Below are positions 4,520 to 63,859 of a DNA stretch of 64,000 nt, piece after piece. The DNA lies in assembly GCA_905178155.1 (NCBI GenBank), contig CAJINV010000006.1, forward strand, positions 502,398-566,397, given 5' to 3'. The notes beneath the pieces were generated by a model. The model made no database searches. It was not told the DNA's origin and was given only the letters and a program-made list of their open reading frames with translations. A program made the translations under genes and the position numbers. This DNA comes from Amoebophrya sp. A120 (taxonomy: Eukaryota > Protista > Dinoflagellata). Within the stretch, counting starts at the first letter, position 1; each line of letters begins with the position of its first letter.

Positions 4520-7500
4520 TCAATACTCCTGTCGACTCAGCACCGACTGCGGGACCATCATATGTCGTACCTCTTTTGGCTGACAGGTGATCACCTCGAG
4601 TCGCACCTGAGTTTCGTTCGAATAATATTCCTATGCATCGCAAATGTGTCTGGATCTGGAAAAGTGCAACGTTTGTCATGCACGTTTTGCATGGCGTGTG
4701 AGGTCTGTGATGCATGCCCTGGCATCACAGATTCTGTGAGATCTTTGCCATGCCTTTTCCGCATGAGAAACTGCGTCTCGGCTTGCTCAAAAGTGCACAG
4801 CTTTATTGGTAATCATGCAACACAGATTTTTGAATGATTCAGACTTAGCATGACAAGTTGTACTCTTCCAGACCCAGACATATTTGCAGTGCATAATTCC
4901 TCTTCGTTCAGCTCGACTCTCGCCCAGGTCCGCAGAAGACTCCGCTCCGTCCGGAATTCCACGCGTGGTGGGGATGTCATTTTTTCTTTATTTTCCGCCT
5001 TTTGGATACTATCCGAAGGAGGTGGAGACGGCGCTGTCGAATCGCGCTGCCGTGGTTGATGGCCGCCGGTTGGCCAATTGGTCAAGTCAGTAGTACTTCT
5101 GCTCGGCGCGGCCAAAGATGAAGTTGTTGTCGTTAAAAACTGCGATGTTGAAGCTGCTGATGCGGGTAGTTGAAGTTGTTCTTGCTGTCGATCAACATCA
5201 TGTTGTCCTTGTTCTACTACTCCGAGCGACAAATTCCCGGCGCAATCCTCAATAAACGTAACAGCAGGCATTGTGGCAGCACTACGACAGGGTAGTGGTG
5301 CTACACGGGAAGGTACAGAAACACTCGTGTCAGGAGCGTACTGATGTTCTACTTCCAGGGCAGGAGTGGGACTGGGAGGTCCTCCGGATGAATCGGAACT
5401 ACTCATAAACGGAACATGAGGTGTGGAAAGGCCGTCGCTGTGCAGGTAGTAGTGCATCTGTTCCTCTTGCTGTGAAGATGTTGTTCCTCCTCCTGCAGCT
5501 TTCGTTCGTGTAGAAGAAGAAGCTGCTCCTGCTGCAGCGTGGGTGTAGTAGTCCACCTCCGCCCCTTGTTTATTTCCCCCGTCTAGTTGCGCAGTTCCAA
5601 CTGTGGGTATCGTATCACTTCGTCTACTATCGTCCCTGTTTACGCTCATCTCCACATCTCCTTCTTCTTTTCGGTCAATTTTCACAGTCTTCGTCTCCAC
5701 CTTCACCCTCCGTTCCAGTAAGTGATACACCCGAAAATCCATCCGTTTCAAATTTCCGGTATAGTAGTCGAACGCAAATTCGAAATGGAATTTGTTATGG
5801 CTGCGAATGTGGAAGTAATGTGCATCCTCTCCACTCGAACCGGCGATAAACGTGGTTTCAAACTCGAAGTGGGGTAGTTTCAGGAAGGATTTTTTGCTTT
5901 CCGCCTGTAGTTCCGAGGATTCCGCAGGTGGGAAACCGGCGCTCGCCGCGGGGACAGAAGAGGAGCTACTGTAGTCTGAAGAACTTCCGGATGTTGATGG
6001 TTGCGCATGATTCAACATATTATCCGGTACTTCTTGCCGCAAAGATGAAGCTGCAGTGGGGATTTCCGTTTGAAAAAATTCCGCGGCTCCAAACTCAAAA
6101 TCAACGGCCGGGTCGATGAATGTTTTGTAAATTTTCACATTCGTTGTTTTTTCTACAATAGTCATACTCTTTCCGTCAAAGGAAACAGTTTTCACTTCTC
6201 CATTACTACTCTCCTGCTGCGAGATGCGGTCTGCGGCGGCCTGCAGCAGGTCGTTTTTGAGCAACACTTATACATTGCAAATAAGTCTGGGTCCTCTCCT
6301 GGATGAAATTTGTGATGCTAAAGTGTGGACGAGTCTAGTGCTTTATTCAAGTGCAGCCAAGCATGACAAATTCATTGGACGCGGTGTGAAGATGCGTAGC
6401 ACGCATGACGAACTAAAGCGTCTTTGCATGCTACAAAAAGGTATTTATTAACGCCTTTATTGCTCGATTACGCAACACAGATTTTTCAGGTATGCTACAC
6501 AGGTAACACACGTTCCACTTTTCCAGACGCAGATCGATATTCGCAATGCATAAAACCTCGGTGACTTCTGGCCGCGCTCGCACCGAGTTCCAGATGGCGG
6601 CCGAGATGAGGGTATGAACTGCAAAAGCATCGCACTCGTAGTAATTGCAATCATGCATTACAAATCTTTTTCTTCTAGGTAAAACCGCATCACAAATTTA
6701 GAGTTCTCATGCTGAGGGAATTTGTCATGCGATTTATACTAGAAGTACGATGCTTTTCCATTTCATAGAGAGAGATGGATTTTTTCGTGATGCGCCACTC
6801 CTGCAGTTTTTGGTAGTAGACACTCGGAGTCATTTGCATCTGCTGCAGTTGCAACACCGGGATGGATTGTTGTTGTTCCCGATTGTACATAGCATTGATT
6901 CCATGATCTTGTTCTCCTGGTGCATCGATTAAATGGTTCATCCCAGTTATAATTTGTTGCTGTTGCACACCTGGACCTCCTCCTCCCAAATGCTCTATCA
7001 ATTCCCGGCCCGCAGCGGTCCTCGGGGTTAACGTTCCGCTGGACATCATCGTTCCTTGAAAATAAACCAGTCGACTGTCCTGCACCCGTCCATTCCGAAG
7101 TAATTTCACCTCATCGGCCGTTGTACTAGTCGCGGCTGCACTACTAGTTGGTGCACCTCTACTCATTGTAGCTCTTCCTCGTGGTAGCGATCTGTCCGCT
7201 TTCAAGACTAACCGCCTCGCCTGCCGGTGGAGTATGTGAACGGCAGCTTTCAACCGGTTTCTTGTACTGTGTATGCATGGCAAATAAGTACGCTTGGGTC
7301 TGCTGGATGAAACTTGTGATGCAAGTCAGTCAAGAATAAGTGCACTATAATGAGCCGGGAAGCATGACATATTTTTTCATGCTTCTGTGCTGCGTATTCC
7401 GCATGAGAAACTGCGTTTTCGCATGACATACGAGGGAGGCTGTTTGTGTTTGTGGCCACGCAATACAGAGTTCAGAGTCACGCCAGACTAGCATGACAAA

Positions 7501-10500
7501 AAATCTCGCAAGTTTCCACGCCGAGACATCTTTGCGTTCGATACTGTGTTCATCCGCCACCGCGTCGGAATCCACCTGGCTGATCTGCGTCTCCTCGCTC
7601 GTTTATGGATTGCAAAAGTCTCTGGGCGGTCTGGAACAAAGCAACTTGTCATGCCAAATCTGAATCATGTAAAAATCTGTGTTGCATGATTACCCAGCAA
7701 AGCTGTCCACTTCTCACCGACTCACGAGGCAGTTTCTCATGCAGGATAGGCATGCTAGAACTCTCACAGAATTTGTCATGCTATGTCCTACATACCAGAC
7801 CTCATGGGTCATGGAAAACCTGCATGACAAGTGTGGCATTCTTCCAGACCCAGACATATTTGCATTTGATATCGTTCGCTGTGGAGTAAAAATCGCGTTG
7901 ATCATCATTTTCTGCATTTTCATAACCACTTGTTCGAGGGATGGCGCAGAGCGAACGAGGGACAACTGCAACGGGCACTGCCTGCTCACGGCAGCCGATG
8001 ATGTTGGCAGAATACTGCCACCAACGCGCGTTTGTACCAACCGCTGCCTCAAGAACGCTCCGCGCGTCATGGTGGTGGTGGCGGTTGTGGGGGCGTCGAC
8101 GTCTAGATCCAGCTCGGCTGGATAGTCATCGGAATCAGAATCAGAATCGTCACTTGATGTTGCGGATGAACTTTCTTCTACCACATCCAACATCTGCGCA
8201 TAAACTGGTCCTTGTTCCGAAGAACCCGTACTAGTTTCCCCGGAAGCACCAATTACACCGCTGCTCACGCTCGCGGTTAACGACTCTTCGAAGAATGATT
8301 CATCCACCTCCGCTAGCTTTTTGGTCATCTGGGTCACGAACATTTTGTAGTCCATCGGCGTCCACAGGTTTGTGTTTTGGTTGAGCAAGGTATCTAAATA
8401 AGATGTTGAACCCGCGTTGTTCGCCTTCTCGACGTCTGGCCTATCGGAAGAGGACGTTGCTCCAGAAGATGACGCTGCGCCCCCGTACACGATCCTGGCC
8501 GTTCCTACGAGCGAGTTGAAGTCTTTTGCGGTTAAGTATCGACAAAGAAAAAAACTGTGTAAGTGTAAGTCTGTCATGTTGGAAGGCTAAGGGCAGGGCG
8601 TCCCCATGTAAATTATTTCGACAAACAGTAGCCGCATACCCGGTAAACTCTAGCGGAATTTATTGGGCAGTGCGATTTCTACCGAAGAACAACCACAGCA
8701 TCTACTGGGACGGCTGCGACGAAAGATGTGTGGGTGCCCAAGTAGAAATAGTTCTGCGCAACGCCATCAACTAGCACCGAGGGAGAAAAAAGAAAGGTAG
8801 AAAAGTGAGAAGCGAGATACTAAGACACAGCCCCACTTACGAAAGAAACACCCTAAAAAGTGGACACACCTATGCGTAGCAGAGTAAAATGTCCTGAACG
8901 CGGGAGCGCGCGCATGAAGAATCAAGCAAGGACGTGCATGCAAATGGCCGAGCAAGTAAATATATGTAGAGAGTGAAACTCTGGTGAAAAAACGGGCAAG
9001 CAGGAACCCGGATGGACAAACGAGAACATCATGACCAAACCAAAGACCACAAAAAGCATGACAAACTAGGCCAGTCTGCTACACAAGGTGAAGCCAGGGT
9101 GGAATTTAGATGTAACCCTGAACGGTAAGCCCATAAAAAATCTAAAGCTCTACACAAAATTCTATCACTAGACCGGTCAATCCACTTCTGCCTGTACCGT
9201 CTCTAACTCGATGGTTTTCTCTGCCACCCTAAGAAGTGGCAAGTGAATGCATGTCATGCCAAGTAGAGACCACTACGACGCGCAACAGCGGCGCAAGCCA
9301 AGTTTTCATTCCCAGAAGGCAGGAGCCCTCGCATACAAAAGTGCCAGTAACCCTGAACAACATACAAAACAGACAGCCGGGCTGTAGAAAACAACAAGGG
9401 AAACTGGCAGCGGGAGGGGAAGAGGAAAACCTAGTGTCGTAGCTAGTCGAGAAAACCGGAGGTAGAGTGCTCGCTATTTTCCGCGTCTTAGTTGGTTGCT
9501 CAAGGGTACAGGCGCCGGCTCCACCATGAGCAACCACGCGAAAAATACGTGGATATTACTGTTTACTATAGTAAAATATAGTTCGAACTTATCTACGTCA
9601 TACAATCATATTTATATAGAAGCTAATAGAGATTCTCTCAGAAAACCAACGCTCTCAGTGTAAGTCAGAGATTCTCTCAGAAAACTAAGTGTAAGTCTGT
9701 CATGCAAAACATGCAACACTGTATACATTTGTCATGCTAGCCAGCCAAGCGAAGCGAAATTTGCATTTCTTTGTCATGCAGAACAAATTTGTCATGCTGT
9801 CACCCGAAGACACCTACACTAACACACTTTCTTCTCTTGCATATTAGGAGTCGTTGGTTCATCAGCTTCACCGGAGGGGGAGAGGAGGTGGGACATCTGT
9901 TATAATCGTTCATCTCGCAAAGGAACACCCCGGGCGGATGCTGGCCGGACCTGCAGGGACCGTCTTCACCCCTTGATGCGCCACCAGTAGTTCCTGCGTC
10001 CCAAGAACTACTACTAGCATCATCAAAACTTCTTCCAGCCGTAAGCACCGAACTAAAACCCGGGTGAGCATCAACCTTGGCGCCGATCGCACTGCCGCTA
10101 CAAAACGTCGTAGAACTACAGGAGCTACTACTCGCGGTTCCTATGTAGTTGCAAAACCCGGCGGAAATCCCCCCATCTATCAAATGCAAATATGTCTGGG
10201 TCTGGAAAAGTGCAAGTTTGTCATGCTTGTCTCACGTGACTCTTGAACCTGTAATGCGTGAGCAGGAAAAGAGCCTCTTGCCTGTCATGCAAAAATGTAG
10301 TTTGTCATGCGGAAAGCGAAACACAAAGGCGCCCAGAAACTTGTCATGCGTGGCTGCCTATTGCAGTCGTGTCCCTACAATTCATAAAGTAGCATCACAA
10401 GTTTCCAGACCCAGACATATTTGCATTTGATACCATCTTCCTCCTCACAACTTGTTTGTTCCGGAATCGCTTTCGCGAACGCAATTTGGTTATGCAGTGC

Positions 10501-12138
10501 AAAAGCATAAGCATCGTACTACTAGTATAAATTGCATTACAAATTCGCTTAGCATATGCAAATAAAATTTGTAATGCGGATAAACGCAATTTAAGTACGA
10601 GTATTCGATACTTTTGCAGTTCATATTGGTTTCTCAAAATCTGCTCCCGAAATTCGTCCAGGGTCTCGGGAAAAAGGTTGGTCGGGTGGGTTAAGGGCAC
10701 GAAGCTGAACGGCTCGCCGGTCATGGTTAAAATCTTCAGCATCTTGTGCTCGGGGGTGGTCGGAACTAACGTGAACTTAAATGTGTGGTTTACCACGGTC
10801 AACGTCGGGTGGGGTTTGTAGCAGTACTGCTTGTAGAGCTGCTTCTGCATTAGCGCCTCCTGAAACACGTGCTTCCCATTTTCTTCCTCTTTCAATATCC
10901 GCGTGTAGAGGTGGTTCAAGACCGGGTAGAGCAAGTCGTCTTTCATCAAATACGACCCGTACTGCGTGAATTCCCTGGGTAACAAAACCGGTGCCTGCAG
11001 CGCGTAGTTGACGGGCACTTTAAATTGCTGTAACAACTGCATCACCGTGACGGGCGGGTCGTCTAGCGCGATTAACGGCCAGTGCTTCTGCAAAGTGAAG
11101 CCAAACGGTGTCTGCACCGTGATCGCCAACATATTGTCGACGCGGTTCTTGATTTTATGGTTACAATCAAGTTTCGAGATTATGTAATTTGAAGCCGCAC
11201 TGCTTGCTGTATTTCCTTGCAGCATCGTTGTTGTGTCGTTTCCTGCTTCGGTCCGTGTTGGTTTTTGCAATTTCACGCAGGCGCCGCGCTTGAACGGAAT
11301 CCGAGAAGCGTTTTTTCCGCGATAAAATAAGGGACCATTATGCGGTGGCTGCTGCGGTTGCTGTGAAGAAGTAGAGGGCATTTGTGGTTCCTGGTCATAA
11401 TGAACAACATGATGATGCGCCGCAGAAGCGGTATCTACCTCGCGGCTACTGCGTGTGGTGGTCGTCGCATGTGAATTATGTGGCGCGGCTGTGCTTGCTG
11501 AGGTCCTCGCGTGGGAGGTAGAAGTCTCCTGCTGTGATGACTGCGGCTGAGCGGCACCATTGCGGCCCCGTGCAGCAGCTTCAGAAGCTCTACTACCGTG
11601 CTGTCTACCTCCCTTTCCTTTCCCTTTCCCTTTACCAGTTCGCGGCCGGCGATGGAAAAAATGTTGCCCCGCGCCCTGGTTGTTCGCCGAACCTGCTGCA
11701 TTATGCGCAGTACGACGACCGTCGCTGCTTCCAATTCCATACACCGGTGTTATAATTTCGGAGCCAACGAGGAAAATCCACCAGCCCAGGAACGCGAGAA
11801 GGAGGTCGAGGCCGCCACACCGGGTCTATGCATTGCAAATATCCCTGGATGTCTGGAAACTTGTGATGCTGGTTGGCGAATCCTGAGGACGCCACAAGTG
11901 ACGGCTCAGCATGACAAGTTTCTGATCTATGCTAGGTGTTGCGTCTTCTGCATGACAAACTGTAATTCGGCATGACAGAAAAGTGCGGCTTTTATTGGGT
12001 AGCGAGCATCACAGACTTCGGGGTCATGCTAGCAGAGCATGACAGGCCTTCCATTCGTCCAGACCCAGACATTTTTGCAATCCATAAGGTCTTCTTGTTT
12101 CCCAGTGCAGCTGCAGGGCGTACCAGCGACATCAGCAT
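4520..12138 (-). CDS. Hypothetical ~1457-aa protein with N-terminal hydrophobic (signal-like) segment; 10 exons, 9 introner introns
   Basis: Exons 12087-12138,10626-11821,10433-10485,9844-10172,7872-8531,7544-7598,6768-7266,6553-6607,4896-6263,4520-4626 sum to 4374 nt; junctions stay in frame (MLMSLVRPAA...LLLAFLGWWIFLVG...SRQEY*). Confidence 0.8.
4632..4895. mobile_element. Introner family A (TIR ~TATCAAATGCAAAAATGTCTGGGTCTGGAA)
   Basis: TIRs, TSD ATTCC. Confidence 0.9.
6269..6552. mobile_element. Introner family A (diverged)
   Basis: TIRs, imperfect TSD ACACT/AAACC, frame restored. Confidence 0.8.
6613..6767. mobile_element. Introner family F (TIR ~TATGAACTGCAAAAGTATCGTAC)
   Basis: TIRs, TSD GAGGG/GAGAG. 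Confidence 0.85.
7272..7543. mobile_element. Introner family A (diverged)
   Basis: TSD CTGTG. Confidence 0.85.
7604..7871. mobile_element. Introner family A
   Basis: TSD TCGTT. Confidence 0.9.
8537..9843. mobile_element. Introner family E (TIR ~TATCCAGAAAAAAACTGTGTAA) interrupted by a 1.1-kb insertion
   Basis: Left end 8537, right end 9843, TSD TTAAG/TTAGG, frame restored (QRLL|TAKD). Confidence 0.8.
8579..9685. mobile_element. Nested insertion, probably a truncated decayed non-LTR retroelement
   Basis: 19-bp direct repeat TAAGTGTAAGTCTGTCATG at 8560-8578 and 9686-9704; duplicated GAGATTCTCTCAGAAAAC at one end; no intact ORF. Confidence 0.65.
10178..10432. mobile_element. Introner family A
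   Basis: Near-perfect TIRs, TSD CCATC. Confidence 0.92.
10491..10625. mobile_element. Introner family F
   Basis: TSD TTGGT. Confidence 0.88.
11827..12086. mobile_element. Introner family A
   Basis: TSD GGGTC/AGGTC. Confidence 0.88.
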
Positions 12139-14473
12139 GATCGTTTAATGTCCTTTCGGTTTCGGTTTCGCCCGCGCTGCGCTGGAAATTATAACACGTT
12201 CGTTGCTCTGTTGTTGGCAGAAGATGCAGAAGGCAGAAGCGCTTGGTGTGGTTCTGCTCGAGCAGGTGGTCCACACTTATTTCATCTAGTGTAAAGTTGA
12301 AGTTTTGTAGTTGTTATATCGTAAAAATCTTATGCAGGGAAGTTGTTCTTGCGTCGATCGTTCGTTTGTTTCAATAACTTGTCAAAATTTTTACGTCTGT
12401 AGTTGCATTTGTCTGATTGCACGGTCAGCCGGAGACAGAGTTTGACCTAACAAACTTTTTCTGCAGCATAATTCTCGTGCCTGATAAGAAGTAGTGTCCT
12501 CGAACAAATTTGTTTGAGAAAAATCCCGTCACCTGTAGGAGATTCCTATTCCAGCATGCGCAGGTTCCATAATATTGCCCCTTCCTTCTACGCAAAAAAT
12601 CAATACCATTTAACTATTGCATTTGCGGATAGAGTTCCTAGTTGTACTGCTCCTGCTGGTGTTAGAAAGAAATAGTAAAACGTAGCATAGTCCAATACTC
12701 CCGAACTGGTTACTATCAATCGATAAAAAAAACCGTACGAGTGCTTGATATCATGAGTGCGCGAAATAATTCTTCGTAGCTGTTTACTCTACTACGAGAC
12801 GAACGATAATTCCGTTTTTTTACTATTGCCGTGACACGTACCTGTCACTTGCCGATTGCGCTGCGCTAGCTGCTGCTGCAACCCTCTCTTCCTGAAGATC
12901 CATCGGACAAACAGAAACAGAAACAGATTCAAATAGAAATAGTCTTTGCATTTAGGCAAATAAACCAATACCTCTGATGTGACACACACAGGCTGTCGAT
13001 CTTCACGCTTTTCATGAAAAATATAGTACAGCTTGTGGTGCTATACAGAGTTCTTCAACGGCATTGAGTTTGGTTGAATTCCAATAGGGTAATTCTTGAA
13101 AATCTTTTACTTAAAAAGTGGTGGTCAGAGAGCACTTGAAATTTACCTTTTATAAAAGTCTCTATCGCTTCTCCAAACGAGAGTAGGACTTTTGCTTTTC
13201 ACAATAGTTCCTGAAATAGTTTTTTTTCACAGCGTATTTGTATTATCGTGCTTCTTGTAGCATGACAACATACGAACCTTCTGCATAGCGTACAGGACGT
13301 ACGGACAAAAAAAGTCCACCGCTCTACTTCGTTACAACCACTGCACAACTGAGATCTTCCGAAACAGCACGAGCGGAGAGTGTGGTCACACCTGCGTGTA
13401 CTAAACAAAGGTGTCGTTTGTAGATAGATCTCTTTCCAAAAGTTGTACAGGAACGTCTGCAATCAGCCGGTTCACCAACATGAAGATCTTACTTCTGCGA
13501 GTAATTGTTCAATGCGAAAACAACACACGACTGAGGTGATGATCTCTTGCTTCTTCGCTTGTCGCCGCCACTGACGATAAAATAGATCCTGCTCGTGCGG
13601 CGACGACTGAAACAGGTAATAAATAGACCCTGCTGCATCAGTCTATTCATTAGTGGTTCTTCACAAAAATGATGCTGACATCTGTAGCTCCATTGCGAGC
13701 CACTTGCGATGCTAAAATTATGGGCTAGACTTGGACTTTCACTTTCCTCGTTTCGATCGGAAAAAAAAAATCAACATCAAAAACGACAAAGAGATCTCCT
13801 CATGTGTAGTTCTGTTTGCAATGCAAACGCCAGTACAGATAGAGCTTCTTACGTGTTTTGGATCTCCGCGTAGATGAACTGTTGATGATGAACATCAGCA
13901 GATCAGACCCATCTTCATGCTCGCGAAATATTAAAATCATGTCCTACTGTCTAACCACAGGACGGATAATTTCATCTGAACAGCAGTACTACCCTCTGGT
14001 CGTCGTCGTGACATGGAGAGCATTTGCTCTTTCCTGTTACAGTCTACTACTTCCAGTCGTGGTCCTACACGACAGAAGTTTTTTCGCTTTCCTCGCCCCC
14101 ACAAGAAATCGAAATCTGTGTGGCGTTAAACAAAAATGTTCGACTGTGGTGGTAAACAAGATTTTGTTTTCTTGTTCACCACTGCTGTTCGACAGGGAGG
14201 TGCTGATCGATAAGTCAACAAGGTCCACCCCACGTTCCGCATAAAAACTTTCGCTAGCACAATGATTGGAATTATGGGACCTCCTGTCACGCGACAACAA
14301 TGCCGGTGGTCTTCATGAAATCCATGTGACTAGTACCATCGTTTTATAGCTATTTAGACAATTGTTGAAGTAGATGAGAAGTATGATTTGAGGATGGTAC
14401 TAGCCGGGGCAAAATTGTAGATACAACCTCTTATCAAAGCATACACTGCCTTCTCCCTGAATTCTTGTAAACC

Positions 14474-16104: not shown

Positions 16105-16497
16105 TCGGTAAAATGTAAATTCGGATATTGCAGTGATTGGAACAAGACACAGAAAGGGATAAGAAAGTTAAGTCATCTAGAACATAAAAATACTTGACTT
16201 GTTTAGTAGTGAGAAACCAAAATGCTACTGCATCATGGCACCGAGAATAAAATAGCAGCAGCCCAAAGATTTTCATAATTGCAGACCAAGAACAAATAAT
16301 TGCTGACTACAAAGAACAACTTGCAAGCCCTGCTAGATTTATGCATGCAAGACCTGCTCGATTTATGCAACGAAAGAAAAACAATAGATAACCATAGCGG
16401 CAACATCAAATAGCACCATTCTACTGCACAGTGTCAAACGGCACACGCTGCTAGGTGGGCCGGAGCCGAAACCTCGTAGCCTCCTCCGTAATTAGAT

Positions 16498-18059: not shown

Positions 18060-18212
18060 CGATTGGTAATTGGCTCCTGAACGTCTACGACAATGTCGAT
18101 GGTCCGAGGTTTTTAAAAGGTTGATGATGTTGAGGCAGTTGTACTACCTATGTACAGTTCTCAGACGAGTCGAAGAAAAGTAGTAGCTGTACTGGCGTAT
18201 TAACTAGTGCTA

Positions 18213-18237
18213 GATGATGATGATGATGATGATGATG
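18213..18237. repeat. (GAT)8 microsatellite
   Basis: Directly visible. Confidence 0.9.
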
Positions 18238-19634: not shown

Positions 19635-20119
19635 GATTGGGCTATCGAATTTGCTAACCTTCCTACGCGCCTTTATTATTCTGCGGAGATGAAGCGGCCT
19701 CGCATGATTTCTACTTTTTGCTTTTCTTTACTGCAGCGGACATCACCCGGAACGCCTTGCGCCAGCGACTGAAATCAAAGAAACCTGTAAACCAGAAGAG
19801 AACTTCGGCAGGTGATAGAACGAAGACAAAGTAGATCGTCGAAAAGCTCCAAAAAGACAGGAGGCACCTGGATCTGAAAAAAGACAGAAGACCATCGAAT
19901 GACAGAATACAACTGGATCTGGAACACGGTACCGCTTTCGATATTTCCATAGAACCACGTCGCCATCGACGTGCCATGGATGACTGGGTAGTTTCAAAAC
20001 ATTTTTTTCACCTGATTCACCTGATAGATTCTTGCGTTGAGAAAAAATCGTTCACTTGCACGACCAGCAACCACGGCAGGACATAGGTCTCCACCAGCGA
20101 GCATGTATTAAGCACCTAT

Positions 20120-53600: not shown

Positions 53601-56600
53601 TCCCAAAAGCAAAACTCGATTGAAAATGCCTCTCATGGGAATGCGCATTACAACTGTTCCTGTGATTGCAAATCTGCATGACAACTGTGAAGTGGGGACG
53701 GTTTTGCTCAAGATACCGGTGCGGGGGTGGTTGTCGTCGTGCGACAGTCGGGGAGGCGGTAAACGCCCCACTTCGGATGCCCGTATCGTGAGGAAAAATC
53801 CCCCCTCCCCATACTCACAATGGAAATTTGTGATGCTGATTTGTGACCACAAATCAGCTTTGTCTTGCATATGAGGCAAATGGGAGCCGTGTGGCGCATT
53901 CCACAGCCAAGCTCTCATGCGCTTTTGCCTACTGCAAAGCTGTCTGTCATGCCCGAGTGCTAGCCTTTTTCATACCTAATCATGCTTAGGAAATGCCTGC
54001 AAGCGCTTTCTGGAATGCAGAGCTGATTTGTGTACACAAAATCCAGCAATAAAAATTTGCGTTTCAATATGGGGAGGAGGCTTTTTGCACTTTGATAGCC
54101 CGGCGTCCTCCGTCTCGATGGGGTGCGTGTCAAACATCGCCTGATACCGCCAGAAGCAGCCCGTTTGATCGTTGGAGAGAGTCCCAGCACCTGCGTCCTC
54201 CTCCGTCGGGGACAACCGGCCCCGAAACTCCATCCGCAGCCACGTGTTCAGGGCGGGCGAGCCGCTGAAGAGAAAAGGAACGTCTTCGTTCTATCCTGAT
54301 TAAAAGCGTCCCCACACCAGAGTCAAGATGGGGATTTTGCAACACAAACCTAGGAGTTTTGGGAGTCACGCATGACAAGTTTCAGTCCGTAAAGTAGTGC
54401 AAATTAGCAAGGAAAGCCGCATCACAAATCGACCTGCTAATCCTGTTTACAGCATTACAAGTTCCCAAAACACGATTGAAAATGCCTGTCATGGGGTTGC
54501 GCATCACAAATGTTCCTGTCATGGCAAATCTGCATGACAACTCTGGGGTGGGGACGTTTTTCATCAGGATACGTTCCACTTGTTTCGGCTTTTCCACACG
54601 TGTCGATTCGGCCAGTATGCATTGCAAAAATCATGTCCGGGAGGTCTGGAAGGATGCAAGGTGTGTCATGCTTGTCCGGCATGACTGAAGAGTTTGTGAT
54701 GCGTGTCCAAGAAGAGACCCTACTTCCGCTCGTCATGCAACACGCAGCTTGTCATGCCAACACTAAGACTTGCGCGAATATTTTATTTCTCATGCTTGGC
54801 TGTGCATTACAGACGAGAAATCACTATTCACAACTCAGCATTACAAGTTTCCAGACATCCAGATCGATATTTGCATTTGATAGCCAGCCGACGTTGCCGT
54901 GCATGTGCCCGTTTACCACGGCAATCACACAGCTGTCGTCCACCAGGTCGTTGATAACTTCGTGCGTCATCCCCTTGTGAGCAGCGCCACGTGTGAAAAT
55001 GTGCAAAAACAACACCGCGTACCGTGACCCGTTAGGACTCGACGCCTGCCACTCCGGGTCGCCGCAGGTCTTGCGCAGCTCCTCGCGGAGCCAATCGACA
55101 CTGTGGCGGAGGCCGTTCAGTGTACGGCAATGCGCCGTGTTGGTGTAGTGGTAGAGGCTATCCCCCTATGGATTGTAAAAATGTCTGGGTCTGGAAGAAT
55201 TGGAACTTGTGATGCTTACTTTGGTCTCTAAAAAAGTCTGTATTGCATGACCAGCAAGAGGAGTCTAGTTTGTGCTACGCGGGGAGGGCGTTTGTCATGC
55301 GGAGTAGGCATCGGGAAGCCCTCTTAAAATCTGCGATGCTAGGTAGTCGTGCATTGCAGACATCCTGGGTCATCCAAAACATGCATGACAAGTCTCAGAA
55401 TCTTCCAGACCCAGACATTTTTACATTTGATACCCCCGTTCTCCCGTCGCAGGCTTCCACACCGTACGTGGACCACTGACTCGGCGACCGGAAGTATCAA
55501 AATGAAAAATCCCCCCTCTCCATATCAAAACGGAAATTTGTGATGCTGATTTGTGGCCACAAATCAGCTTTGTATTGCACAGAGGCACTGCGGCCAGATC
55601 CCCAGGCTAGGTCGGGGCGTTTGGGTCTAGTAGTTCAGCATGGCAAACGGCCCCCCTTTAGGCCCAACAGCGTGACAAATCGCTTCCATAATGGGGCGGA
55701 AGCTTCTGCCCTTGTCTTCTTGCAAGACAGATGTGATTTGTGACCTCAAATCCGCAACACAAATTTCTGAAAACATACCTTTTCAATATGGGGAGGGGGG
55801 ATTTTTCCTCTCAATAGGAAGCAGTCGGCCCCGCGGCCGCGCTGCGCGCACGTACCTTCATAGGCAGGGTGCATGTGCAGGGCAAACATGCGGAACCGGC
55901 CATTGTCGTGCGGATGGGTCCAAGCGTAGGACCCGGACTCCCGGTGAAAAGCGTCAATCACGGAGTTTTTTCGGAAGGTGTCACTCGCAGTACCGAACTG
56001 TTCCGCACTTTTCGTCGCCGCCCTTTTTGAGACGGGAAACCGATTCGAGGCCGCGAAGCCGGATTGCGTGTCACCGCTCGCCGGATCCCGGTCGGCCGTC
56101 GATACCAGTGTTCGGATGTACTGCAACTGACCCATCGCTCTTCCGTTCCCGCACCACAGGCGCCCGACCTGCGCTTGCTCGTACAGATACCCATACGTCA
56201 CCTCATAGTCGTGGTTGCCCAGGAGGGGCAGCACGTACCAGTCCTTGCGTGGGTTAAACTGGTGCAAAAATTTGGAGAAGTACTCTTCAATCTGCGGCTG
56301 CGTTCCGAGGTGCGTTAAGTCCCCCACCACGACCACATCCTGCCGTGCGTAGTTGCCCGGGGGCAGCGCCGTTGTCCCAGGTAAATCGACGAGACCCCCG
56401 CCGTCGTCGGCGGGCAAATTGTGGGCCTCATCATGCTATCAAATGCAAAAGCGTCTGGGGCTGGAAACTTGTGATGCTGGGTGGCGTATCATGAGGAGGC
56501 CACAAGTGCTGGCTCAGCGTGACAAGTTTCTGAGCTTCTAGGTGAAGGTGTTGCCTATTCTGCATGACAAACTACGTTTCTACATGACAGAAAAGTGGGG

Positions 56601-59127
56601 CTCTTGGGTAACGCGCATGACAGATTTGAAAGTCATGCCAGACAAGCATGACAAACATGCACTCTTCCAGACCCAGACATTTTTACATTTGATACATGCC
56701 ACTGACAGCCCGCGCGGTTCGCTTTGCAGGCCATGACACCTTGGGTCACAGCGCCCTGCACGGTGTCGCTGTGAAAAAAATCGCACTTATCCTGTGTAAA
56801 AACGTCCCCACCTACCCAGAGTTCTTGTCATGCAAATCTGCATGCTCAAAATGTTTGTCATGCGGAGCCCCATGAGAAGCATGATTTTCTGGTCGTGTTT
56901 TGGAATTTGTATTGCGCCAATCAGCATGATATACGAGATCTTCTGTGACGCTGCTGAACTACCTCAAACAGCACTACAGTACACTGCGACTCCAAATTGT
57001 GATGCAAAACAGCCAAAACTCGTGGACTTGTCTAGCCGATTTCCCATCTTGATCTTGACTATGGGGAGGTGGGGACGTTTTTACATAGGATAACGCTCGC
57101 TCGCCTGCTGCGTCGCGTACGAAGAGCCCGGCAAGACCTCGAAGCCCTTGAAAGTGCTCTTGTACCCGAATTGCACGTCCCCGACCACGAAAAGGTCGTA
57201 GGACTCGTAGTCCTGCTGTCCGGGAGAAAAGGAAGTTGGCGCCGTCTGAAAGTAGTTGTAGTATCCTGAGTAAAAACGTACCCACACCAGAGTCAGGATG
57301 GGGATTTTGCAACACAAACCTAGGAGTTTTGTGAGTCACGCAGGACAAGTTTCAGTCCGTAAGGTAGTGCAAGTTAGCAAGGAAAGCCGCATCACAAATC
57401 GATCTGCTGATCCTGTTTACAGCATTACAAGTTCCCAAACACGATTGAAAATGCCTGTCATGGGGTTGCGCATCACAAATGTTCCTGTCATGGCAAAGTC
57501 GCATGACAACTCTGGTGTGGGTACGTTTTTACTCACGATATGTAGGACTCGATGCTCCCGACTTGCTGCTCGCTCGTGGTGCAGCCTGCGGTGGAGAACG
57601 TGCCACTTTCCTATCAAGTGTAAAAGTGTCTGGGTCTGGAAGATTGCCAGGTTTGTCATGCATATTTTGCATAACCCATGATGTCTGTAATGCCCGGCCG
57701 ATCATCACAAATTTTTAAGGGGCCTTCTGATGCGTATTCCCCACGAGAAACGCGCGCTCCGCGTAGCACAAACTGAACTCCTCTTGCTGGTCATGCAATA
57801 CAGATTTTTTTTACCTTCCAAAGACGGCATGACAAGTTGCATTCTTCCAGACCCAGACATTTTTACATTTGATATTTCCTGAAAATAGCCGTCTGCGGTG
57901 CAGTATTTCACGTTGCGAAACTATCCCACGAGAAAAGTGTTACAGTTAAGTACACATTTGTAGTGAATTCAGCAACACAAATTTCTCTGTATGAGAGAGG
58001 AAACTTGTAATGCAGAAATCCTACAGGAAATAAACACCTATGAAACGAGGCTCCTATGCACATCCGGCATGACAGAGCTTGTCTGTCTTGCTTGGCCTGC
58101 ATGGACTATGTGTAAAAACTGTAACAGTTTTTTCTTGCGATAGAAACGCCAGCTGTCTCTGGTTGCTGCTCTCGGACCCGTTCTGCTGGTCCAGGCACCA
58201 ACACTTGCTATGCCTGATTGCTTGCTGTATCAAATGCAAATATGTCTGGGTCTGGAAGTTTGTGATGCTAAAATGTGCAAGAGGAATGCACTCCCTTCAT
58301 GCAGGAAAGCATGACAAGTTTACAAAGAACGCTTTCTCACACAAACTCCGCATGGCAAACTGCGTTTTTGTATGACCACAGGAAAGGCTACCACTTTTGT
58401 TGGTCATGCAATACAGATTTCACAGGAATGCAAGACGAGCATTACAATTTCCAACTTTATTCCAGACCCAGACATATTTGCATTTGGTATGCTGAATGTC
58501 GCGGCTAACCGAGTCCGGCACCCAAGCACTGCTCCCCGGAACGGGCGAGCAGTCCACGCCCTTTAGCTTTTCGAGTTCCGTATTTTTCATCTTCATCTCT
58601 AGGGTAGAAGTGCCAGTGCTGGCCCTTTGATTCTCCAGCCGCTCACGCACCTGTTCCTTTGCAGCGGAAGTAGAAGCCCGCGACGCAGCAGCCAGCTTCT
58701 GGAGCAGGGATGTAGAGCTTGCTCTGGTCCTCGCTTTGTTCGAACTAATCCTGCCGAGATGTTGTGATCGTGCTGTAGTTCTGCGGCCCATGCTAGAAAT
58801 TGTTCCAGCATTGTTGTTCTTTCTCCCTCGCGTTCTCTTTGTTCCCAGCAGTTGTGCCTGGTAGGCAGCGGCAAACGGAACATCAAATAAGCCGTCGACA
58901 TTTTTATAACTGGAATCTGTTGCCGTAGAATAAGTGGGGGAAAGTGAATGGATAAGTTTTGTGGAAGTTGTTTTTGCGGGAGTGAACCATAATGTCGAGA
59001 GCCGATGGAGAAGATTAATAGTGGTACAACTCGGGTGGAGCCACACAAGGAGGACAATGGTTTTTTTGACCATTACTGAATGCTGATCCACAATTTTCTT
59101 TGGGAGAACAACAATATTAAACATCAT
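50652..59127 (-). CDS. ~1144-aa calcineurin-like metallophosphoesterase fused to five spondin-type TSP1 repeats; 19 exons, 18 introners
   Basis: Exon sum 3435 nt; motifs VVGDVQFG, VVGDLTH, LGNHDY, LFLHIF, VNGHMH; TSP1 DCVLSDW...CSxTCG...RxR x5; ends PPGFVCC*. Confidence 0.82.
50746..50956. mobile_element. Introner family E
   Basis: TSD TCTCG. Confidence 0.9.
51045..51319. mobile_element. Introner family A
   Basis: TSD CAAGG. Confidence 0.9.
51448..51754. mobile_element. Introner family D (inverted relative to 30976)
   Basis: TSD ATTTC/ATGTC. Confidence 0.88.
52203..52468. mobile_element. Introner family A
   Basis: TSD GTCTA/GTCCA. Confidence 0.9.
52613..52891. mobile_element. Introner family B
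   Basis: TSD CCGAT. Confidence 0.9.
52958..53236. mobile_element. Introner family A (diverged)
   Basis: TSD AGTCC. Confidence 0.88.
53419..53715. mobile_element. Introner family B (diverged)
   Basis: TSD CCGGC/CCGGT. Confidence 0.85.
53784..54097. mobile_element. Introner family C
   Basis: TSD GCCCG. Confidence 0.9.
54292..54571. mobile_element. Introner family B
   Basis: TSD CGTTC; close sister of 57262. Confidence 0.92.
54616..54882. mobile_element. Introner family A
   Basis: TSD GCCAG. Confidence 0.88.
55167..55432. mobile_element. Introner family A
   Basis: TSD CCCCC. Confidence 0.9.
55495..55816. mobile_element. Introner family C
   Basis: TSD GGAAG. Confidence 0.9.
56437..56694. 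mobile_element. Introner family A
   Basis: TSD CATGC. Confidence 0.9.
56788..57092. mobile_element. Introner family B
   Basis: TSD GCACT/ACGCT. Confidence 0.85.
57262..57540. mobile_element. Introner family B
   Basis: TSD TGTAG. Confidence 0.92.
57612..57874. mobile_element. Introner family A
   Basis: TSD TTTCC. Confidence 0.92.
57922..58142. mobile_element. Introner family E
   Basis: TSD GAAAC. Confidence 0.9.
58228..58489. mobile_element. Introner family A (GTA end)
   Basis: TSD TGCTG. Confidence 0.9.
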
Positions 59128-59871
59128 GATAAAGATACAACTTTCTATGGGGCGACAAAGCGTCTACAGACGAAAGACGACAATAAAGACAGGAAGACAA
59201 TAGAATACTTTCTGTTTCTGAAACGGTCGGCGGGGTGCAAATAAATTTACACGGTTGTAAGTAGCATCCAGGTTCATCTTTCTGGGAGGATTTCTTGCCT
59301 GTGAAACTGAAAAATCTCGGTGGATCATCACGTCGCATCATCCAGTTGGTGGAGCTAAAAACGACATAACCACCTACGATGCAGAAGATTGCTTGGACGA
59401 TCATGGAGCAGTACGAGTACGACTACGAGAGCTGCAGGACGATTAAAAATTATTGGACGATGTATAAAACAAGAAATAAGTGCGACACCACAAGGAACAA
59501 GCGAATCATGTTGAGAGGTGGTTGTAGACACGATGATTTCTTTTTCCGCTTGATCAAGAAATACTGTCTGATACATTGACCCGACCACGCGTAGGGTCGT
59601 GTGGTCATGGCGCGATCTTCAGTATTAAATACTGTTTATAGGTTTTCAGTTTTGATGTTGTCCAAGAGCAAGTATTCGGAGTAAATTCGCTTCTAATTCA
59701 GTGGGACGACGAGAACTTACACCAGCCTTCATTTCAGAAACCATTAACGAAAGCGGCGCGAAACTGCAACTGCTGCGCCTGCGACGAGTACACGACGGAA
59801 AAAATACAAACAACGGATTGGAATTGCTGGACGATATTATTTGCTCATTCTGGGGTCATCCTCGTCCACCT

Positions 59872-62800
59872 CTAACAGCACAACCCTGAATAATCCGGGG
59901 GGTCTCCTACAGCAGTAGCGCCATTACTTTCCGTGCTCAAAACTTCTAAATCTCCAGCTGCATTGGAGATGTTAGCAGGGACTAGATCGGGAGGTGTCGC
60001 GTTCGTCGAAGAAAAATCTGTTGTGTTGTTCTGCAGACCACTAGGTGTAGAAGTTGTACCATCTTCAGTGCTGCCAGCACTACTGTTCGTAGAAACACTA
60101 CTAATACTACATTCCTGCAAAACTCCTTCACAGGCTTCCTCCTTTTCCAACGCAAAACCGCTGCAGGGACGCCCACCCCCAACCGCGTCACTGAGCACTT
60201 CTCTCGTCAGTCGGCGCACCCCAGCGCCACAGGTTACGCTACAGGAGGTTGTAGTACTGCCACCCCACTCAGTGAGCTGACAATCCCTGTCCACCGGCGT
60301 AGTTGGTGGATCATCTACGACAGGAGCTGATGTCGACACGGTCGGGGTTGTTGTCCCCCCGTCCTCGTCGCGACACGCGGGGAGCCGAAACGCACCGTGC
60401 CGCATAATGTTTGCTTCGTCTGGATCTGCTTCCACGGGCTTGGTCTTGTACATGCTCTGGAACCGCCAGAAACACTATCAAATGCAAAAATGTCTGGGTC
60501 TGGAACTTGTGGTGCGAACTTTGGACTCTAAAAACGTCTGTATTGCATGACTAGCAAGAGCAGTCTAGTTTGTGCTACACGGGGAGGGCGTTTGTCATGC
60601 GGAGTAGGCAGCAGTAAGCCCTCTAAAAATCTGTGATGCTAGGTCGTGCATTACAGACGTCCTGGGTCATGTGAAACATGCATGACAAGTCTCAGAATCT
60701 TCCAGACCCAGACATTTTTGCATTTGATAAACACGACGCGGCCGGAGATGCGGTGTCAAGAACCTCCTGCTCTCCGCCACTATCAGCCTCCGCGCTGGCG
60801 CGGCCGGTGAATTCCATGCGCAGCCAGGTGTTCATGGCCGGGGAGCCGGCGAAGAGAAAGGGCACATTATTAAGAGGAAAAATCCCCCCTCCCCATATCG
60901 AAAACGAAAGTTGTGACGCTGTATTTGAGTACACAAATCGACTTGTATTGCTAGAAGGCCAAGAGCCGCAGCTGGGGCCTCGTTTGCAGGCAATTTGTCA
61001 TGCTGTTTCCTACTTCCAGCTGCCTCCTGTCATGCTGAAGATGCAAGGCTTTCCCAAGCCACCCAGCACTACAGTCAGAATCTTTTCCCTTCTAGCATGA
61101 CAAAGCTGATTTGTGACTACAAATCTGCAACACAGATTTCCGTTTTGATATGGGGAGGGGGGATTTTTCTTCTTGATACACATCGTCGCCCCACTTGTTA
61201 ACGCTTTTCCACGAGTTTTTGACCTCCCACCCAATCCGCTCGTGGCAGTGGCCGTTTACAACGGCGACGACGCAACTGTCGCGCACCAAATCGTGGATCA
61301 CGTCCGCCGTCATTCCACTCTCGGCGCCGTGGTTCTTCCCGTTTTTAAAAATGTGCACGAATAGCACGGCGTACCGCGACCCCTTGTGCCCCCTCGCGGC
61401 CCAGGTCTCGTCGTCGCACGTCTTCAGCAGCTGGTCCCGCAGCCAGTCCACGCTCGGCCGCAAGTGTCCCAACGTGCGGCAGTGCCCCGTGTTTTCCTTG
61501 TGATACAAGGCGTGGCCGTATCCTGTGCAAAAGTACTATCGCACTCGTTTAGTGATTGCATTTATGCATTACAAATCTCTTTCGCAAGACAAATTAGCAT
61601 TGCAAATCTAATTTGTAATGCTGGGCTAAAACTTGTAATGCAAATTAAACTAGTAGGATGCTTTTGCATTGCATAGGCCGCGCACCCCGTCACACGCCTC
61701 CATGCCGTACGTGGAAAGCTGTCCCGCTATCGTGAGGAAAAATCCCCCCACCCCATACCAAAAAGGGATACTTGTGATGCTGATTTGTAGCCACAAATCG
61801 TCTCTGTGTTGCAAGCAGGCCAATCCAAAGACTCCTTCGCATTGTGCTGGCGGTTTCTGATGCTATGGGGCCTACAGAGTACACATTTGCCATGCTACGC
61901 GCCTACGTCAAAGCCCTTCTACTTAGGCTTGGTATGGGCCTGCAGTTCCCTACTGCAAGACAGACCTGATTTGTGTACGCAAATCCAGCATCAGCAACTT
62001 CGTCTTGATATGGGGAGGGGGGATTTTTCCTTTTGATACCCGCGCATTCTTTCCCGCCGGGCGCGCACCCCGCGGAGGGCGCCTTGCCGGCATTGCAGTT
62101 TTCTTGGTTACACCCCTCGGTCGAAAAACATTTCCCGTCGGCGTTCACGTACCCCCGCTGCGCACAGGTGCCCTCGTAGGCCGGGTGCATGTGCAGGGCG
62201 AACATCCGAAACCGCCCGTGGTCCTGCGGGGGGGTCCAGGCGTAGGACCCCGACTCGCGGTGAAACGCGTCAATAACGGAATTGTGCGCCCACTGCGGGT
62301 GTGTATCCAAAACCGCGTTCGCGGCGCGCTTGGTCACCGGGAAGCGCACAGACTGCGCGCATCAAAGTGAAAAAAGCCCCCACAACATACGCAAAAGGCG
62401 ATTTGTGTTGCTGGATTTGTGTACACAAATGAGCTTTGTATTGCAGCGAGAGTTTGTCGGCATATTCTAAGCCCATTTAGATACGCATCCGGCTAGCAGC
62501 TGCGCATGAGAAACAAGGCTGAGATAGGCGAAAACGCATGACAGGCTGGCTGCACAATGCGCCACATGGGTGCCGTTTGCCTTGTACGCAAGACAGACCT
62601 GATTTGTGGTCGCAAATCAGCATCACAAATTTCCTTTTCGATATGAGGAGGGGGGATTTTTTCCTCGCAATAGCGCGAGGGGGTGATGCGCCTCGTCTAT
62701 GGATGTGTCAGAGTTGAAATCGACAAAGTTGAAATAATTTCCCATGCATAAATTGCAAGGCATGAACTGCCTCTCTTGCAGGGACGGCAAGTGATGCCGA

Positions 62801-63859
62801 CTGTCAGCCTGTTTGGGGTCTGCGATAGAGCTACTAAAGTAGCACTACAGAAGACGCCTTCTGGGGCCCCTAAACAGCATGACAAACTGGATTTGGACGG
62901 TGCCAAAATTTGTCATGCGCCGCTTAGAAATTGGGCTTCCACCTGGTATCGATTTTATGCATTACAAATTATTTCAACTTTGTCGATTTCAACTCTGACA
63001 CATCCATATCGTCGGATATTGGTGTAAAGTCCGCGGTCGTGAGCATTACCCGAATGTACTGTAGTTGTGCCATGGCCCGACCCACCCCGCTATCAGATGT
63101 AAAAGTGTCTGGGTCTGGAAGAATGCATGTTTGTCATGCTTGTCTGGGATGATTCTTAAATCTGTCATGCACGTTACCCAAGAGCCCAATTGTTCTGTCA
63201 TGCAGAAACGCAGTTTGTCATGCAGAATAGGCAACACCTAGAAGCTCAGAAAGTTGTCATGCTGAGCCAGCACTTGTGGCGTCCTCCTGATACGCCACTC
63301 AGCATCACAAGTTCCCAGACCCAGACATTTTTGCATTTGATACCCGCACCAGCGGTGGGCGTCTCTGTGCGGGAACAGGTAGGGGTAGCGGTTCTGGTAG
63401 TCGTGGTTGCCCAGCATGGGCAGCACGTACCAATCCTCCTTCGGATCGTCAAATTGATGCAGAAACTTTTCGAAATACTCTTCCAACTGGCTCATAATGC
63501 CCAGATGCGTCAAGTCTCCCACGACAATGACGTCCTGACGAGGATGTGCAACCATTGAAGCCGAGGACCCAGCAGGACTTGCCCCCGAGGATTCAGGGAG
63601 CTGAACAATTGTGGTAGTAGTTGTTGTAGTCCCAGCAGATGACTGGTCTTGTGCCTCCACTAGCCTCATCGCGTCCGCGTGCCACGTGCAACTCCCCCGG
63701 TCCGCCTTGCAGGCCTTCACGCCCGCGTCGAGGGCGGCGGGTATGGTTGTGGTATCATGGGGAAACGACTGTTTCTCCCCGTTTTCGGTCCTCTTTCGCG
63801 TTGCGGACTCGGATTCGGGGGGGTCCAGCTCGAACCATTTGTCAAAGTGGCTTGTGTAA
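59872..63859 (-). CDS. Paralogous metallophosphoesterase with one TSP1 repeat, 5' end outside the window
   Basis: Exons 63343-63859,63009-63085,62673-62692,62039-62354,61676-61722,61179-61513,60730-60862,59872-60470; VVGDLTHLG, LGNHDY, VNGHCH; ends PPDYSGLCC*. Confidence 0.82.
60476..60729. mobile_element. Introner family A
   Basis: TSD AACAC. Confidence 0.92.
60868..61178. mobile_element. Introner family C
   Basis: TSD CACAT. Confidence 0.9.
61519..61675. mobile_element. Introner family F
   Basis: TSD GGCCG. Confidence 0.87.
61728..62038. mobile_element. Introner family C
   Basis: TSD CCCGC. Confidence 0.9.
62360..62672. mobile_element. Introner family C (CAT start)
   Basis: TSD GCGCG. 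Confidence 0.87.
62698..63008. mobile_element. Introner family D
   Basis: Perfect ~40-bp TIR, TSD TCGTC. Confidence 0.92.
63091..63342. mobile_element. Introner family A (inverted sister of 56437)
   Basis: TSD CCCGC. Confidence 0.92.

What the first reader, a model, noticed from the sequence alone, without database searches (positions are those of the whole stretch)
6613..63342. One 9-mer, GCAT(G/C/T)ACAA, is shared by otherwise unrelated element families
Seen: families A-K have unalignable TIRs and bodies, yet each intact element carries roughly 2-7 copies of GCATGACAA/GCATCACAA/GCATTACAA (variants GCATGAGAA, GCAACACA) in both orientations, about 30-50 nt apart. The outermost copies usually sit about 35-50 nt from each end. 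The motif is rare in exons and intergenic DNA. Inference: it is a common licence signal bound by a host splicing or excision factor, or by a shared transposase, and could be the core of an undescribed intron-definition code.
Basis: partly seen in the sequence, partly recalled or inferred. Interest (0 to 1): 0.85.

Follow-up and report, generated by a model that had tools for sequence, protein, structure and literature searches.

The report
Shared DNA docking word in introners
In what is likely the marine parasite Amoebophrya, dissimilar families of small jumping introns carry the same conserved 9-letter word on both strands, often 31-33 letters apart, and some lacking it in the RNA are still missing from likely-mRNA contigs, so it is likely a landing site for one DNA-binding protein rather than a splice signal, and would be a bait for finding the unknown machinery that spreads these introns.

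Summary
The motif is real: 182 strict copies in 82 curated elements (20,988 bp) against 12 in the other 43,012 bp and 0 in 22,966 bp of coding exon. The elements are the published A120-type Amoebophrya introners (TAT…ATA ends, 5-bp duplication). Motif cores differ from family consensus at 5.0% of positions, flanks at 29%. Masking the motif removes nearly all similarity between eight lineages (754 to 4 hits). An RNA splice code is not supported: copies are 270 sense and 270 antisense, and 6 of 32 elements removed in likely-RNA contigs have no sense copy. Same-direction copies favour 31-33 nt spacing and a ~10.4-nt period (p 0.006-0.05), which points to double-stranded DNA. Also seen here: the word is the top 9-mer in 351 kb of non-element DNA, sits in 3 of 3 RNA-confirmed GT-AG introns, and is where 7 of 8 nested inserts landed. 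Best reading: a site for one DNA-binding protein, likely host-encoded and likely used for mobilisation; the transposase itself is the close rival. No binder was identified. The scan noted motif, spacing and retro-targeting before, on other DNA of this genome.

The parts
4632..63342 (.). 82 curated TAT...ATA elements of 75-351 bp with 5-bp target duplications, inside minus-strand genes
   Evidence: coordinates listed; removing element+5 nt gives minus-strand ORFs up to 1,952 aa
4632..63342 (.). Lineage A (33 copies assigned, ~262 bp, TIR continuing TGTCTGGGTCTGG); outermost motifs point outward, 33-49 nt from the ends; inserted both ways (10 of 21 A1 and 7 of 12 A2 flipped)
17708..57540 (.). 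Lineage B (12 copies, ~280 bp); almost all motif copies point one way; 6 of 12 flipped
6613..61675 (.). Lineage C (8 copies, ~150 bp); motifs point inward, consensus 43>,74>,90<,108<
27629..62672 (.). Lineage D (8 copies, ~312 bp); three motif pairs 32-33 nt apart in the consensus
29963..63008 (.). Lineage E (5 copies, ~308 bp, long TIRs)
30327..30606 (-). Family B copy with 0 sense and 5 antisense motifs in the transcript; removed
   Evidence: contig offset arithmetic, 264 nt
43237..43515 (-). Family B copy with 5 sense and 0 antisense motifs; removed with one duplication copy
   Evidence: joint 43231>43516 in X3, X5, X6
39724..39972 (-). Single-copy element with terminal stem but no motif; removed exactly (249+5 nt)
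   Evidence: X6 pieces 39236-39718 and 39973-40498 adjacent; best PWM score 6.4, P 0.27 vs shuffles; stem z -3.97
24827..24994 (-). Family C copy with only degenerate motifs; removed
   Evidence: joint 24820>24994; PWM 11.2
43603..43793 (-). Canonical GT-AG intron with a sense motif (43623-43631) and an antisense variant
   Evidence: joint CT..AC
44803..44924 (-). Canonical GT-AG intron with two sense motifs 32 nt apart (44840, 44872)
45527..45647 (-). Canonical GT-AG intron with one sense motif (45540-45548)
8537..9843 (.).
8579..9685 (-). Likely non-LTR retroelement fragment inserted between G and C of a motif copy, flanked by a 19-nt duplication (8560-8578, 9686-9704)
   Evidence: 354-bp 97% copy at the same bond in L070 and a ~70% relative in L011; no reverse transcriptase shown

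Best explanation
The 9-mer is conserved, strand-symmetric and spaced in steps of about 10.4 nt in these introners, and it is likely the binding site, on double-stranded DNA, of one protein, likely host-encoded, that dissimilar families likely need in order to be copied rather than spliced. Shown: conservation, strand symmetry, discrete spacing, removal of element plus one 5-nt duplication in likely-RNA contigs with or without a sense copy, and enriched sites outside elements. Inferred: several molecules of the protein bind one face of the helix across the 150-330 bp element and help bring the ends together for the cut-and-paste enzyme, which reads the family-specific TIR. Splicing is inferred to depend on the terminal RNA stem closed by the duplication, so an aged copy can lose the motif and still be removed. 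'Host-encoded' includes a domesticated transposase DNA-binding domain. The broader claim, a double-stranded-DNA protein site and not an RNA splice signal, I put at about 0.85.
For: Selection: core 82/1640 mismatches (5.0%) vs flanks 1074/3721 (28.9%); position 5 changes often (51/205) but never to A (0/51; 4/108 with the relaxed motif). Not trivial descent: cross-lineage profile hits 754, falling to 4 with motifs masked vs 164 with a matched random mask. DNA not RNA: 270 sense/270 antisense in 265 oriented elements; 6 of 32 RNA-supported elements have no relaxed sense copy and 11 no strict one; no position-5 agreement in inverted pairs (41/136 vs 46% expected). Phase: 31-nt spacing in 11 clusters, further peaks near 42, 53, 64, 75, 85, 94 and 124; best period 10.4, p 0.0005 at 10.5 over 12 clusters, p 0.006 over 8 lineages; divergent pairs share one phase (R 0.54). 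Host rather than transposase: top 9-mer in 350,805 bp of non-element DNA (29 vs 3.7), with 6 of 12 same-direction pairs at 32-35 nt; 39 such sites match no family above 18.2 bits, keep 'not G' before the motif (1/39; elements 4/182) but lose the elements' downstream TT; 3 of 3 RNA-confirmed GT-AG introns carry it; TIRs beyond position 13 are family-specific yet conserved (terminal 30 nt 12.8% mismatch), which suggests family-specific enzymes plus a common cofactor (inference).
Against: No binding protein was found and no binding was tested. The period weakens with lineages merged: p 0.047 after scanning periods, and 0.03 at 10.5 / 0.40 scanned once the 29-35 nt pairs are dropped; peaks at 18, 39 and 49 are off-phase. 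Whether selection acts before or after insertion was inconclusive (core 2.8%, ends 3.1%, interior 5.9%). Non-element sites could be remnants of old elements. 'Dispensable for splicing' rests on contigs from one study, labelled RNA only as a guess, and on one fully motif-less element; contigs retaining two motif-poor elements were also seen (40781 at depth 14.8, 37775 at 4.3). hAT subterminal repeats are bound by the transposase itself (PMC10368747, passages), the usual case.
Confidence: 0.45

Rival explanations
1. The motif is a subterminal repeat bound by the DNA-binding domain of the mobilising transposase itself (hAT-like, as in Hermes or Ac). One enzyme, or related enzymes with the same specificity, moves all families, and sites outside elements are remnants or incidental.
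For: Shared TAT-N7-AAA ends and 5-bp duplication imply one enzyme superfamily. hAT ends carry short repeats in both orientations bound by BED domains (PMC10368747), and hAT5 makes 5-bp duplications (PMC12730594). Single-copy, likely old elements have lost the motif (37775, 39724). Unchecked earlier notes report hAT-like giants with these ends.
Against: Constrained sites in non-mobile GT-AG introns. Family-specific conserved TIRs. No transposase Pfam match among 132 of 282 locus ORFs or 14 window ORFs (a weak negative). Farhat et al. report no transposase in A120.
Confidence: 0.33
2. The motif is a DNA-level intron mark. A host protein on the intron DNA helps recruit the U1-less spliceosome during transcription, raising efficiency without being essential.
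For: 3 of 3 RNA-confirmed GT-AG introns and 11 of 25 predicted ones (2 of them decayed elements) score above shuffles at P<=0.05; 0 in coding exons; U1 was not detected in A120 (PMC7789003); strand symmetry would not matter on DNA; a contig retains motif-poor 40781 at depth 14.8 vs 62-79 for exons.
Against: 39724 has no site and is removed. 14 of 25 predicted GT-AG introns lack a site. The predictions are noisy and the three confirmed introns are in one gene.
Confidence: 0.12
3. The motif is an RNA signal, such as a branch point (U-n-A-C core) or a splicing-factor site, carried on both strands so that either insertion orientation is spliced.
For: In the three confirmed GT-AG introns a sense copy ends 13-37 nt before AG; in 136 of 265 elements the last sense copy ends 25-45 nt before the 3' end.
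Against: 6 of 32 removed elements have no sense copy. Sites outside elements: 10 sense, 16 antisense, 13 undetermined. An antisense pair lies in predicted intron L034:3347-3494. Helical phase has no meaning for a single strand.
Confidence: 0.04
4. Sharing is trivial: all families descend from one ancestor and the motif is inherited baggage.
For: Common end signature; some 'families' do align (A1/A2 at 120 bits; clusters 6/7/9 and 2/8). Deep common ancestry is not excluded.
Against: Six-fold lower change than flanks, A excluded at position 5, different layouts in different lineages, no alignment without the motif.
Confidence: 0.03

Closest known systems
Amoebophrya sp. A120 introner elements / non-canonical introns (Farhat et al. 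2021, PMC7789003; Gozashti et al. 2025, PMC12130899)
   Same: TAT + 7 + AAA inverted-repeat ends, short direct repeats, non-GT-AG junctions, co-oriented genes, many families; family lengths seen here (~150, 206-230, 262, 280, 307, 322) resemble listed A120 families classed 'TIR DNA, Unknown' (19 of 58 rows seen).
   Different: Neither paper, in the parts searched, reports an internal motif shared between families, its spacing, or its presence in GT-AG introns. Figures could not be seen.
hAT subterminal repeats (Hermes AAGT/BED domain; Ac, Tol2; PMC10368747) and hAT5 (5-bp duplications; PMC12730594)
   Same: Short motif repeated in both orientations inside the TIRs, asymmetric between ends; 5-bp duplication as in hAT5.
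   Different: Here the site is 9-11 bp rather than 4, is shared by lineages with different TIRs, fills the whole element, is phased at ~10.4 nt and recurs in host introns.
Introners of Micromonas and Aureococcus that insert in nucleosome linkers (as described in PMC9860276)
   Same: Non-autonomous TIR elements that become introns, with a DNA-level spatial pattern; here new copies cluster 25-75 nt from neighbours.
   Different: Those are reported to have canonical splice motifs (PMC7789003); no chromatin data were available here.
Target-specific non-LTR retrotransposons (Tx1, R1, R2/CRE/NeSL, Utopia; PMC4640811)
   Same: Variable-length inserts with 8-20 nt duplications and simple-repeat tails at a fixed position of a multicopy sequence.
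   Different: The target is a 9-bp word shared by spliced transposon families; no reverse transcriptase or endonuclease was found, so the clade is unknown.

Membership tests
Amoebophrya A120-type introner elements | Inverted repeats starting TAT, seven variable bases, then at least three A | tested here: met
   TAT at 141/142 ends, A at positions 11-13 in 118, 125, 136 of 142 (finder required TA); definition from PMC7789003 section 11. Lineages E and I depart at positions 11-13.
Amoebophrya A120-type introner elements | 3-5 nt direct repeats at the exon/intron boundary | tested here: met
   5-bp duplication perfect in 62 of 82, 4/5 in 15
Amoebophrya A120-type introner elements | Removed from transcripts at non-GT-AG junctions | tested here: met
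   18 listed joints and 14 more by contig offsets, all element+5 nt; X1 spans 38870-42981 unbroken; runs are RNA by guess, with a poly-T end at 42276 and GT-AG introns also removed
Amoebophrya A120-type introner elements | Organism is Amoebophrya A120 | tested here: inconclusive
   Inferred from element signature and gene co-orientation; two protein searches returned only the window's own protein; no Rfam match
hAT subterminal repeats | Short repeats in both orientations inside the TIRs | tested here: met
hAT subterminal repeats | Cognate autonomous element encoding a hAT transposase with a BED domain | tested here: inconclusive
   No transposase Pfam match in 132 of 282 locus ORFs or 14 window ORFs; whole genome not held; reported only in unchecked notes
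hAT subterminal repeats | 8-bp duplication (5 bp in hAT5) | tested here: inconclusive
   5 bp here, fitting hAT5 only; 5 bp is not unique to hAT
hAT subterminal repeats | Transposase binds the repeat | not testable with these tools
   needs a binding assay
Spliceosomal branch point | Sense-strand copy near the 3' end of each spliced intron | tested here: not met
   6 of 32 removed elements lack any relaxed sense copy; 270/270 strand symmetry
Spliceosomal branch point | Pairs with U2 snRNA | not testable with these tools
   U2 alignment is a figure in the supplement; no genome held
Target-specific non-LTR retrotransposon (nested inserts) | Insertion at a fixed position with variable-length duplication | tested here: met
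   5 of 8 at the same G^C bond, 2 more within 3 nt, 1 unclear; duplications of 8-20 nt in 5
Target-specific non-LTR retrotransposon (nested inserts) | Encodes reverse transcriptase and endonuclease | tested here: inconclusive
   The window insert has no ORF above ~110 aa; the inserts may be truncated

The most novel reading that the evidence does not exclude
A parasite without detectable U1 snRNA marks introns on the DNA: a host protein binds helically phased GCATBACAA sites in both transposon-derived and ordinary GT-AG introns and hands the nascent RNA to the spliceosome. Transposon lineages converged on this word to be copied and tolerated, and retroelements evolved to target it as a spliced-out haven.
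Probability: 0.12. Interest if true: 0.9.

Novelty: new variant of a known kind. Interest (0 to 1): 0.6.

Why it matters
How A120 introners move and how they are spliced are both open: Farhat et al. found no transposase and no U1 in A120. A conserved 9-11 bp word with a fixed spacing rule gives a defined bait (a double-stranded pair 31-33 nt apart, with an A-at-position-5 control) to isolate the protein. It also splits the problem: the terminal stem likely serves splicing and the motif likely serves a DNA-level step. If the binder is host-encoded, one cofactor site would underlie the largest non-canonical intron invasion described and serve as a target for retroelements.

Tried and rejected
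Branch-point reading: raised, rejected; my visual impression that outside sites precede YAG did not survive the strand test. RNA hairpins between inverted copies: no position-5 agreement in six pair classes. Age test using duplication mismatches: inconclusive. First masking control was not size-matched (48% masked) and was redone. Periodicity in gaps between elements: none. Autonomous element: none found; only the 132 longest of 282 locus ORFs and 14 window ORFs were scanned. Viral contigs: 0 TIR matches; 12 matches to a motif pair, each with only those two copies, taken as chance. No RNA holder was on record in the run listing. Raw-read RNA runs X9 and X10 laid only 12 and 13 reads, at element ends with other flanks, so retention could not be measured. 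Rfam: 0 matches. Protein searches gave self-hits only. U2 sequence: not obtainable. Six first-pass candidates were set aside as false pairs or re-cut by eye (five dropped for good, 39724 kept) and ten elements were added by hand. Seven outside sites that looked like undetected elements were dropped before the flank count. PMC6004678 gave no passage for the terms asked.
Full report
Observation. The strict motif GCAT[GCT]ACAA occurs 194 times in the window, evenly on both strands. I catalogued 82 elements with TAT...ATA ends and 5-bp flanking duplications (five first-pass candidates dropped, ten added by eye). They hold 182 copies in 20,988 bp; the other 43,012 bp hold 12; the A variant is absent; Markov models of the elements expect 1-8. 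Coding exons hold none in 22,966 bp. Of the 12 outside copies, four belong to a compound element at 8537-9843 and four to canonical introns.

What the elements are. The ends read TAT, seven variable bases, AAA, the signature given for Amoebophrya A120 introners (PMC7789003 section 11). Removing each element plus 5 nt gives minus-strand frames of up to 1,952 aa. Contigs of runs X3, X5 and X6 (one study, two samples; RNA by guess, but with a poly-T end and GT-AG introns removed) lack 32 elements, 18 by listed joints and 14 by exact contig offsets, always element+5 nt. Run X1 spans 38870-42981 unbroken. The organism is inferred; protein searches gave only self-hits. The 300 under 400 bp were pooled with the 82, giving 12 multi-copy clusters.

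Against leave-one-out family consensus in six window families, motif core positions differ at 82 of 1,640 (5.0%), 10-nt flanks at 28.9%, other interior at 28.1% and the terminal 30 nt at 12.8%. Position 5 changes at 51 of 205 but never to A. Some clusters are relatives, leaving eight lineages. Between them, profile hits fall from 754 to 4 when motifs are masked, against 164 for a matched random mask. The motif is therefore selected and is nearly all the lineages share internally; deep common ancestry is not excluded.

RNA or DNA. Families insert both ways relative to the transcript (flipped 10/21, 7/12, 6/12, 3/8, 3/8, 2/5). In 265 oriented elements there are 270 sense and 270 antisense strict copies. 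Of the 32 removed elements, 11 have no strict and 6 no relaxed sense copy. Family B is removed with 5 sense/0 antisense (43237) or 0/5 (30327). Element 39724 has no site on either strand, keeps its terminal stem and is removed. Inverted copies show no position-5 agreement. A branch-point reading arose because all three confirmed GT-AG introns have a sense copy ending 13-37 nt before AG. It failed: outside sites were 10 sense, 16 antisense and 13 undetermined, and an antisense pair lies in a predicted intron.

Spacing. Same-direction copies peak at 31-33 nt (31 in 11 clusters) and near 42, 53, 64, 75, 85, 94 and 124, with off-phase peaks at 18, 39 and 49. The best period is 10.4 nt: p 0.0005 at 10.5 and 0.005 after scanning over 12 clusters; 0.006 and 0.047 over eight lineages; 0.03 and 0.40 without the 29-35 nt pairs. 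Divergent pairs share a phase of 5.7 nt and convergent pairs 3.9 nt, close to what binding on one helical face predicts (inference). The 31-33 rule is firm; the wider period is moderate.

Sites outside elements. In 350,805 bp of unique non-element DNA, GCATGACAA is the most over-represented 9-mer (29 vs 3.7), and 6 of 12 same-direction pairs are 32-35 nt apart. Thirty-nine such sites (seven probable undetected elements dropped) match no family above 18.2 bits, keep the avoidance of G before the motif (1/39) and lose the TT that follows it in elements. That pattern fits selection at non-mobile sites better than neutral decay. Eleven of 25 roughly predicted GT-AG introns score above shuffles, two of them decayed elements, and 14 do not. 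The site is thus enriched in host introns but not general.

Nested inserts and clustering. The element at 8537-9843 carries a 1.1-kb insert between G and C of a motif copy with a 19-nt duplication; its removal fuses a 1,459-aa frame. Of eight nested inserts seen, five use this bond, two lie within 3 nt and one is unclear. They look like non-LTR retroelement pieces, but no reverse transcriptase was shown. Elements also cluster 25-75 nt from each other (34 of 72 gaps vs 12.6 simulated).

Mechanism. Most likely (0.45) one host-encoded DNA-binding protein, possibly a domesticated transposase domain, binds phased copies on double-stranded DNA and is a cofactor of mobilisation. Family-specific TIRs would be read by the enzymes, and splicing would rely on the terminal stem. 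Binding, the binder's identity and the role in mobilisation are inferred. The close rival (0.33) is the transposase itself, as for hAT subterminal repeats (PMC10368747). I found no transposase in 132 of 282 locus ORFs or 14 window ORFs, and reports of hAT-like giants elsewhere in this genome are unchecked notes. A DNA-level mark that aids splicing gets 0.12, an RNA signal 0.04 and trivial descent 0.03. The test for selection after insertion was inconclusive. Contigs retaining two motif-poor elements are a small point for a splicing role.

Literature seen. PMC7789003: abstract, passages, sections 11-12 and supplement text searches; figures, including the U2 alignment and logos, could not be seen and may bear on novelty. 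PMC12130899: passages, 12 of 14 supplements searched, 19 of 58 A120 rows seen. PMC11282704, PMC10368747, PMC12730594, PMC12005148, PMC9860276, PMC4640811: passages. PMC6004678: no passage returned. Roy et al. 2023 and Huff et al. 2016 were not read. Searches listed no paper holding the motif together with Amoebophrya or introners (one search listed 25 of 37). The scan's own notes had recorded the motif, its spacing and retro-targeting on other DNA of this genome; I had reached those results before looking.

Verdict. The elements are known. The shared, phased, strand-symmetric site and its presence in host introns were not found in print: a new variant of a known kind. Interest 0.6.

Noticed in passing
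window 8537-9843; L070:3862-4492; L011:4992-6246; L069:571-1051; L035:632-1465; L039:5305-5761; L002:3144-5030; L027:505-1608: Eight nested inserts in elements: five at the G^C bond of a motif copy, two within 3 nt of it, one unclear; several have simple-repeat tails and 8-20 nt duplications.
   Followed up: yes
window genes 4523-63996 and loci L001-L165: Elements cluster next to each other: 34 of 72 gaps in window genes are 25-75 nt (simulation mean 12.6, maximum 27) and none is under 25 (5.4 expected); the loci show the same peak.
   Followed up: partly
window 40781-41054 and 37775-38125: Motif-poor elements are covered by contigs that retain them (X6 depth 14.8 and 4.3 vs 62-79 for exons); may be pre-mRNA, DNA or poorer splicing.
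   Followed up: no
window 28278-28433: The two duplication copies differ by one base, and the frame stays open (1,952 aa) only if the cut keeps part of the right-hand copy, which constrains the splice position.
   Followed up: partly
window 4523-63996: All long reading frames are on the minus strand, one co-oriented block.
   Followed up: yes
window 14560-15400: Palindromic and duplicated non-coding region with a 40-bp 95% hairpin at 14839-14923.
   Followed up: no
window 1000-2750: GC-rich island (63-70%) with overlapping ORFs and no Pfam match.
   Followed up: partly
window 19134-19727: TMEM14-family gene (PF03647) on the minus strand, without elements.
   Followed up: partly
window 35150-35295: 68-nt direct duplication carrying two motif copies in non-coding DNA upstream of the 22792-34426 gene.
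   Followed up: no
window 36444-36518: 75-bp remnant with element-like ends and one motif; it fits the element+5 frame rule.
   Followed up: partly
runs X9, X10 on window 23001-43000: A few reads match element ends with different flanks while exons are not covered, suggesting a related strain that shares families but not sites.
   Followed up: no
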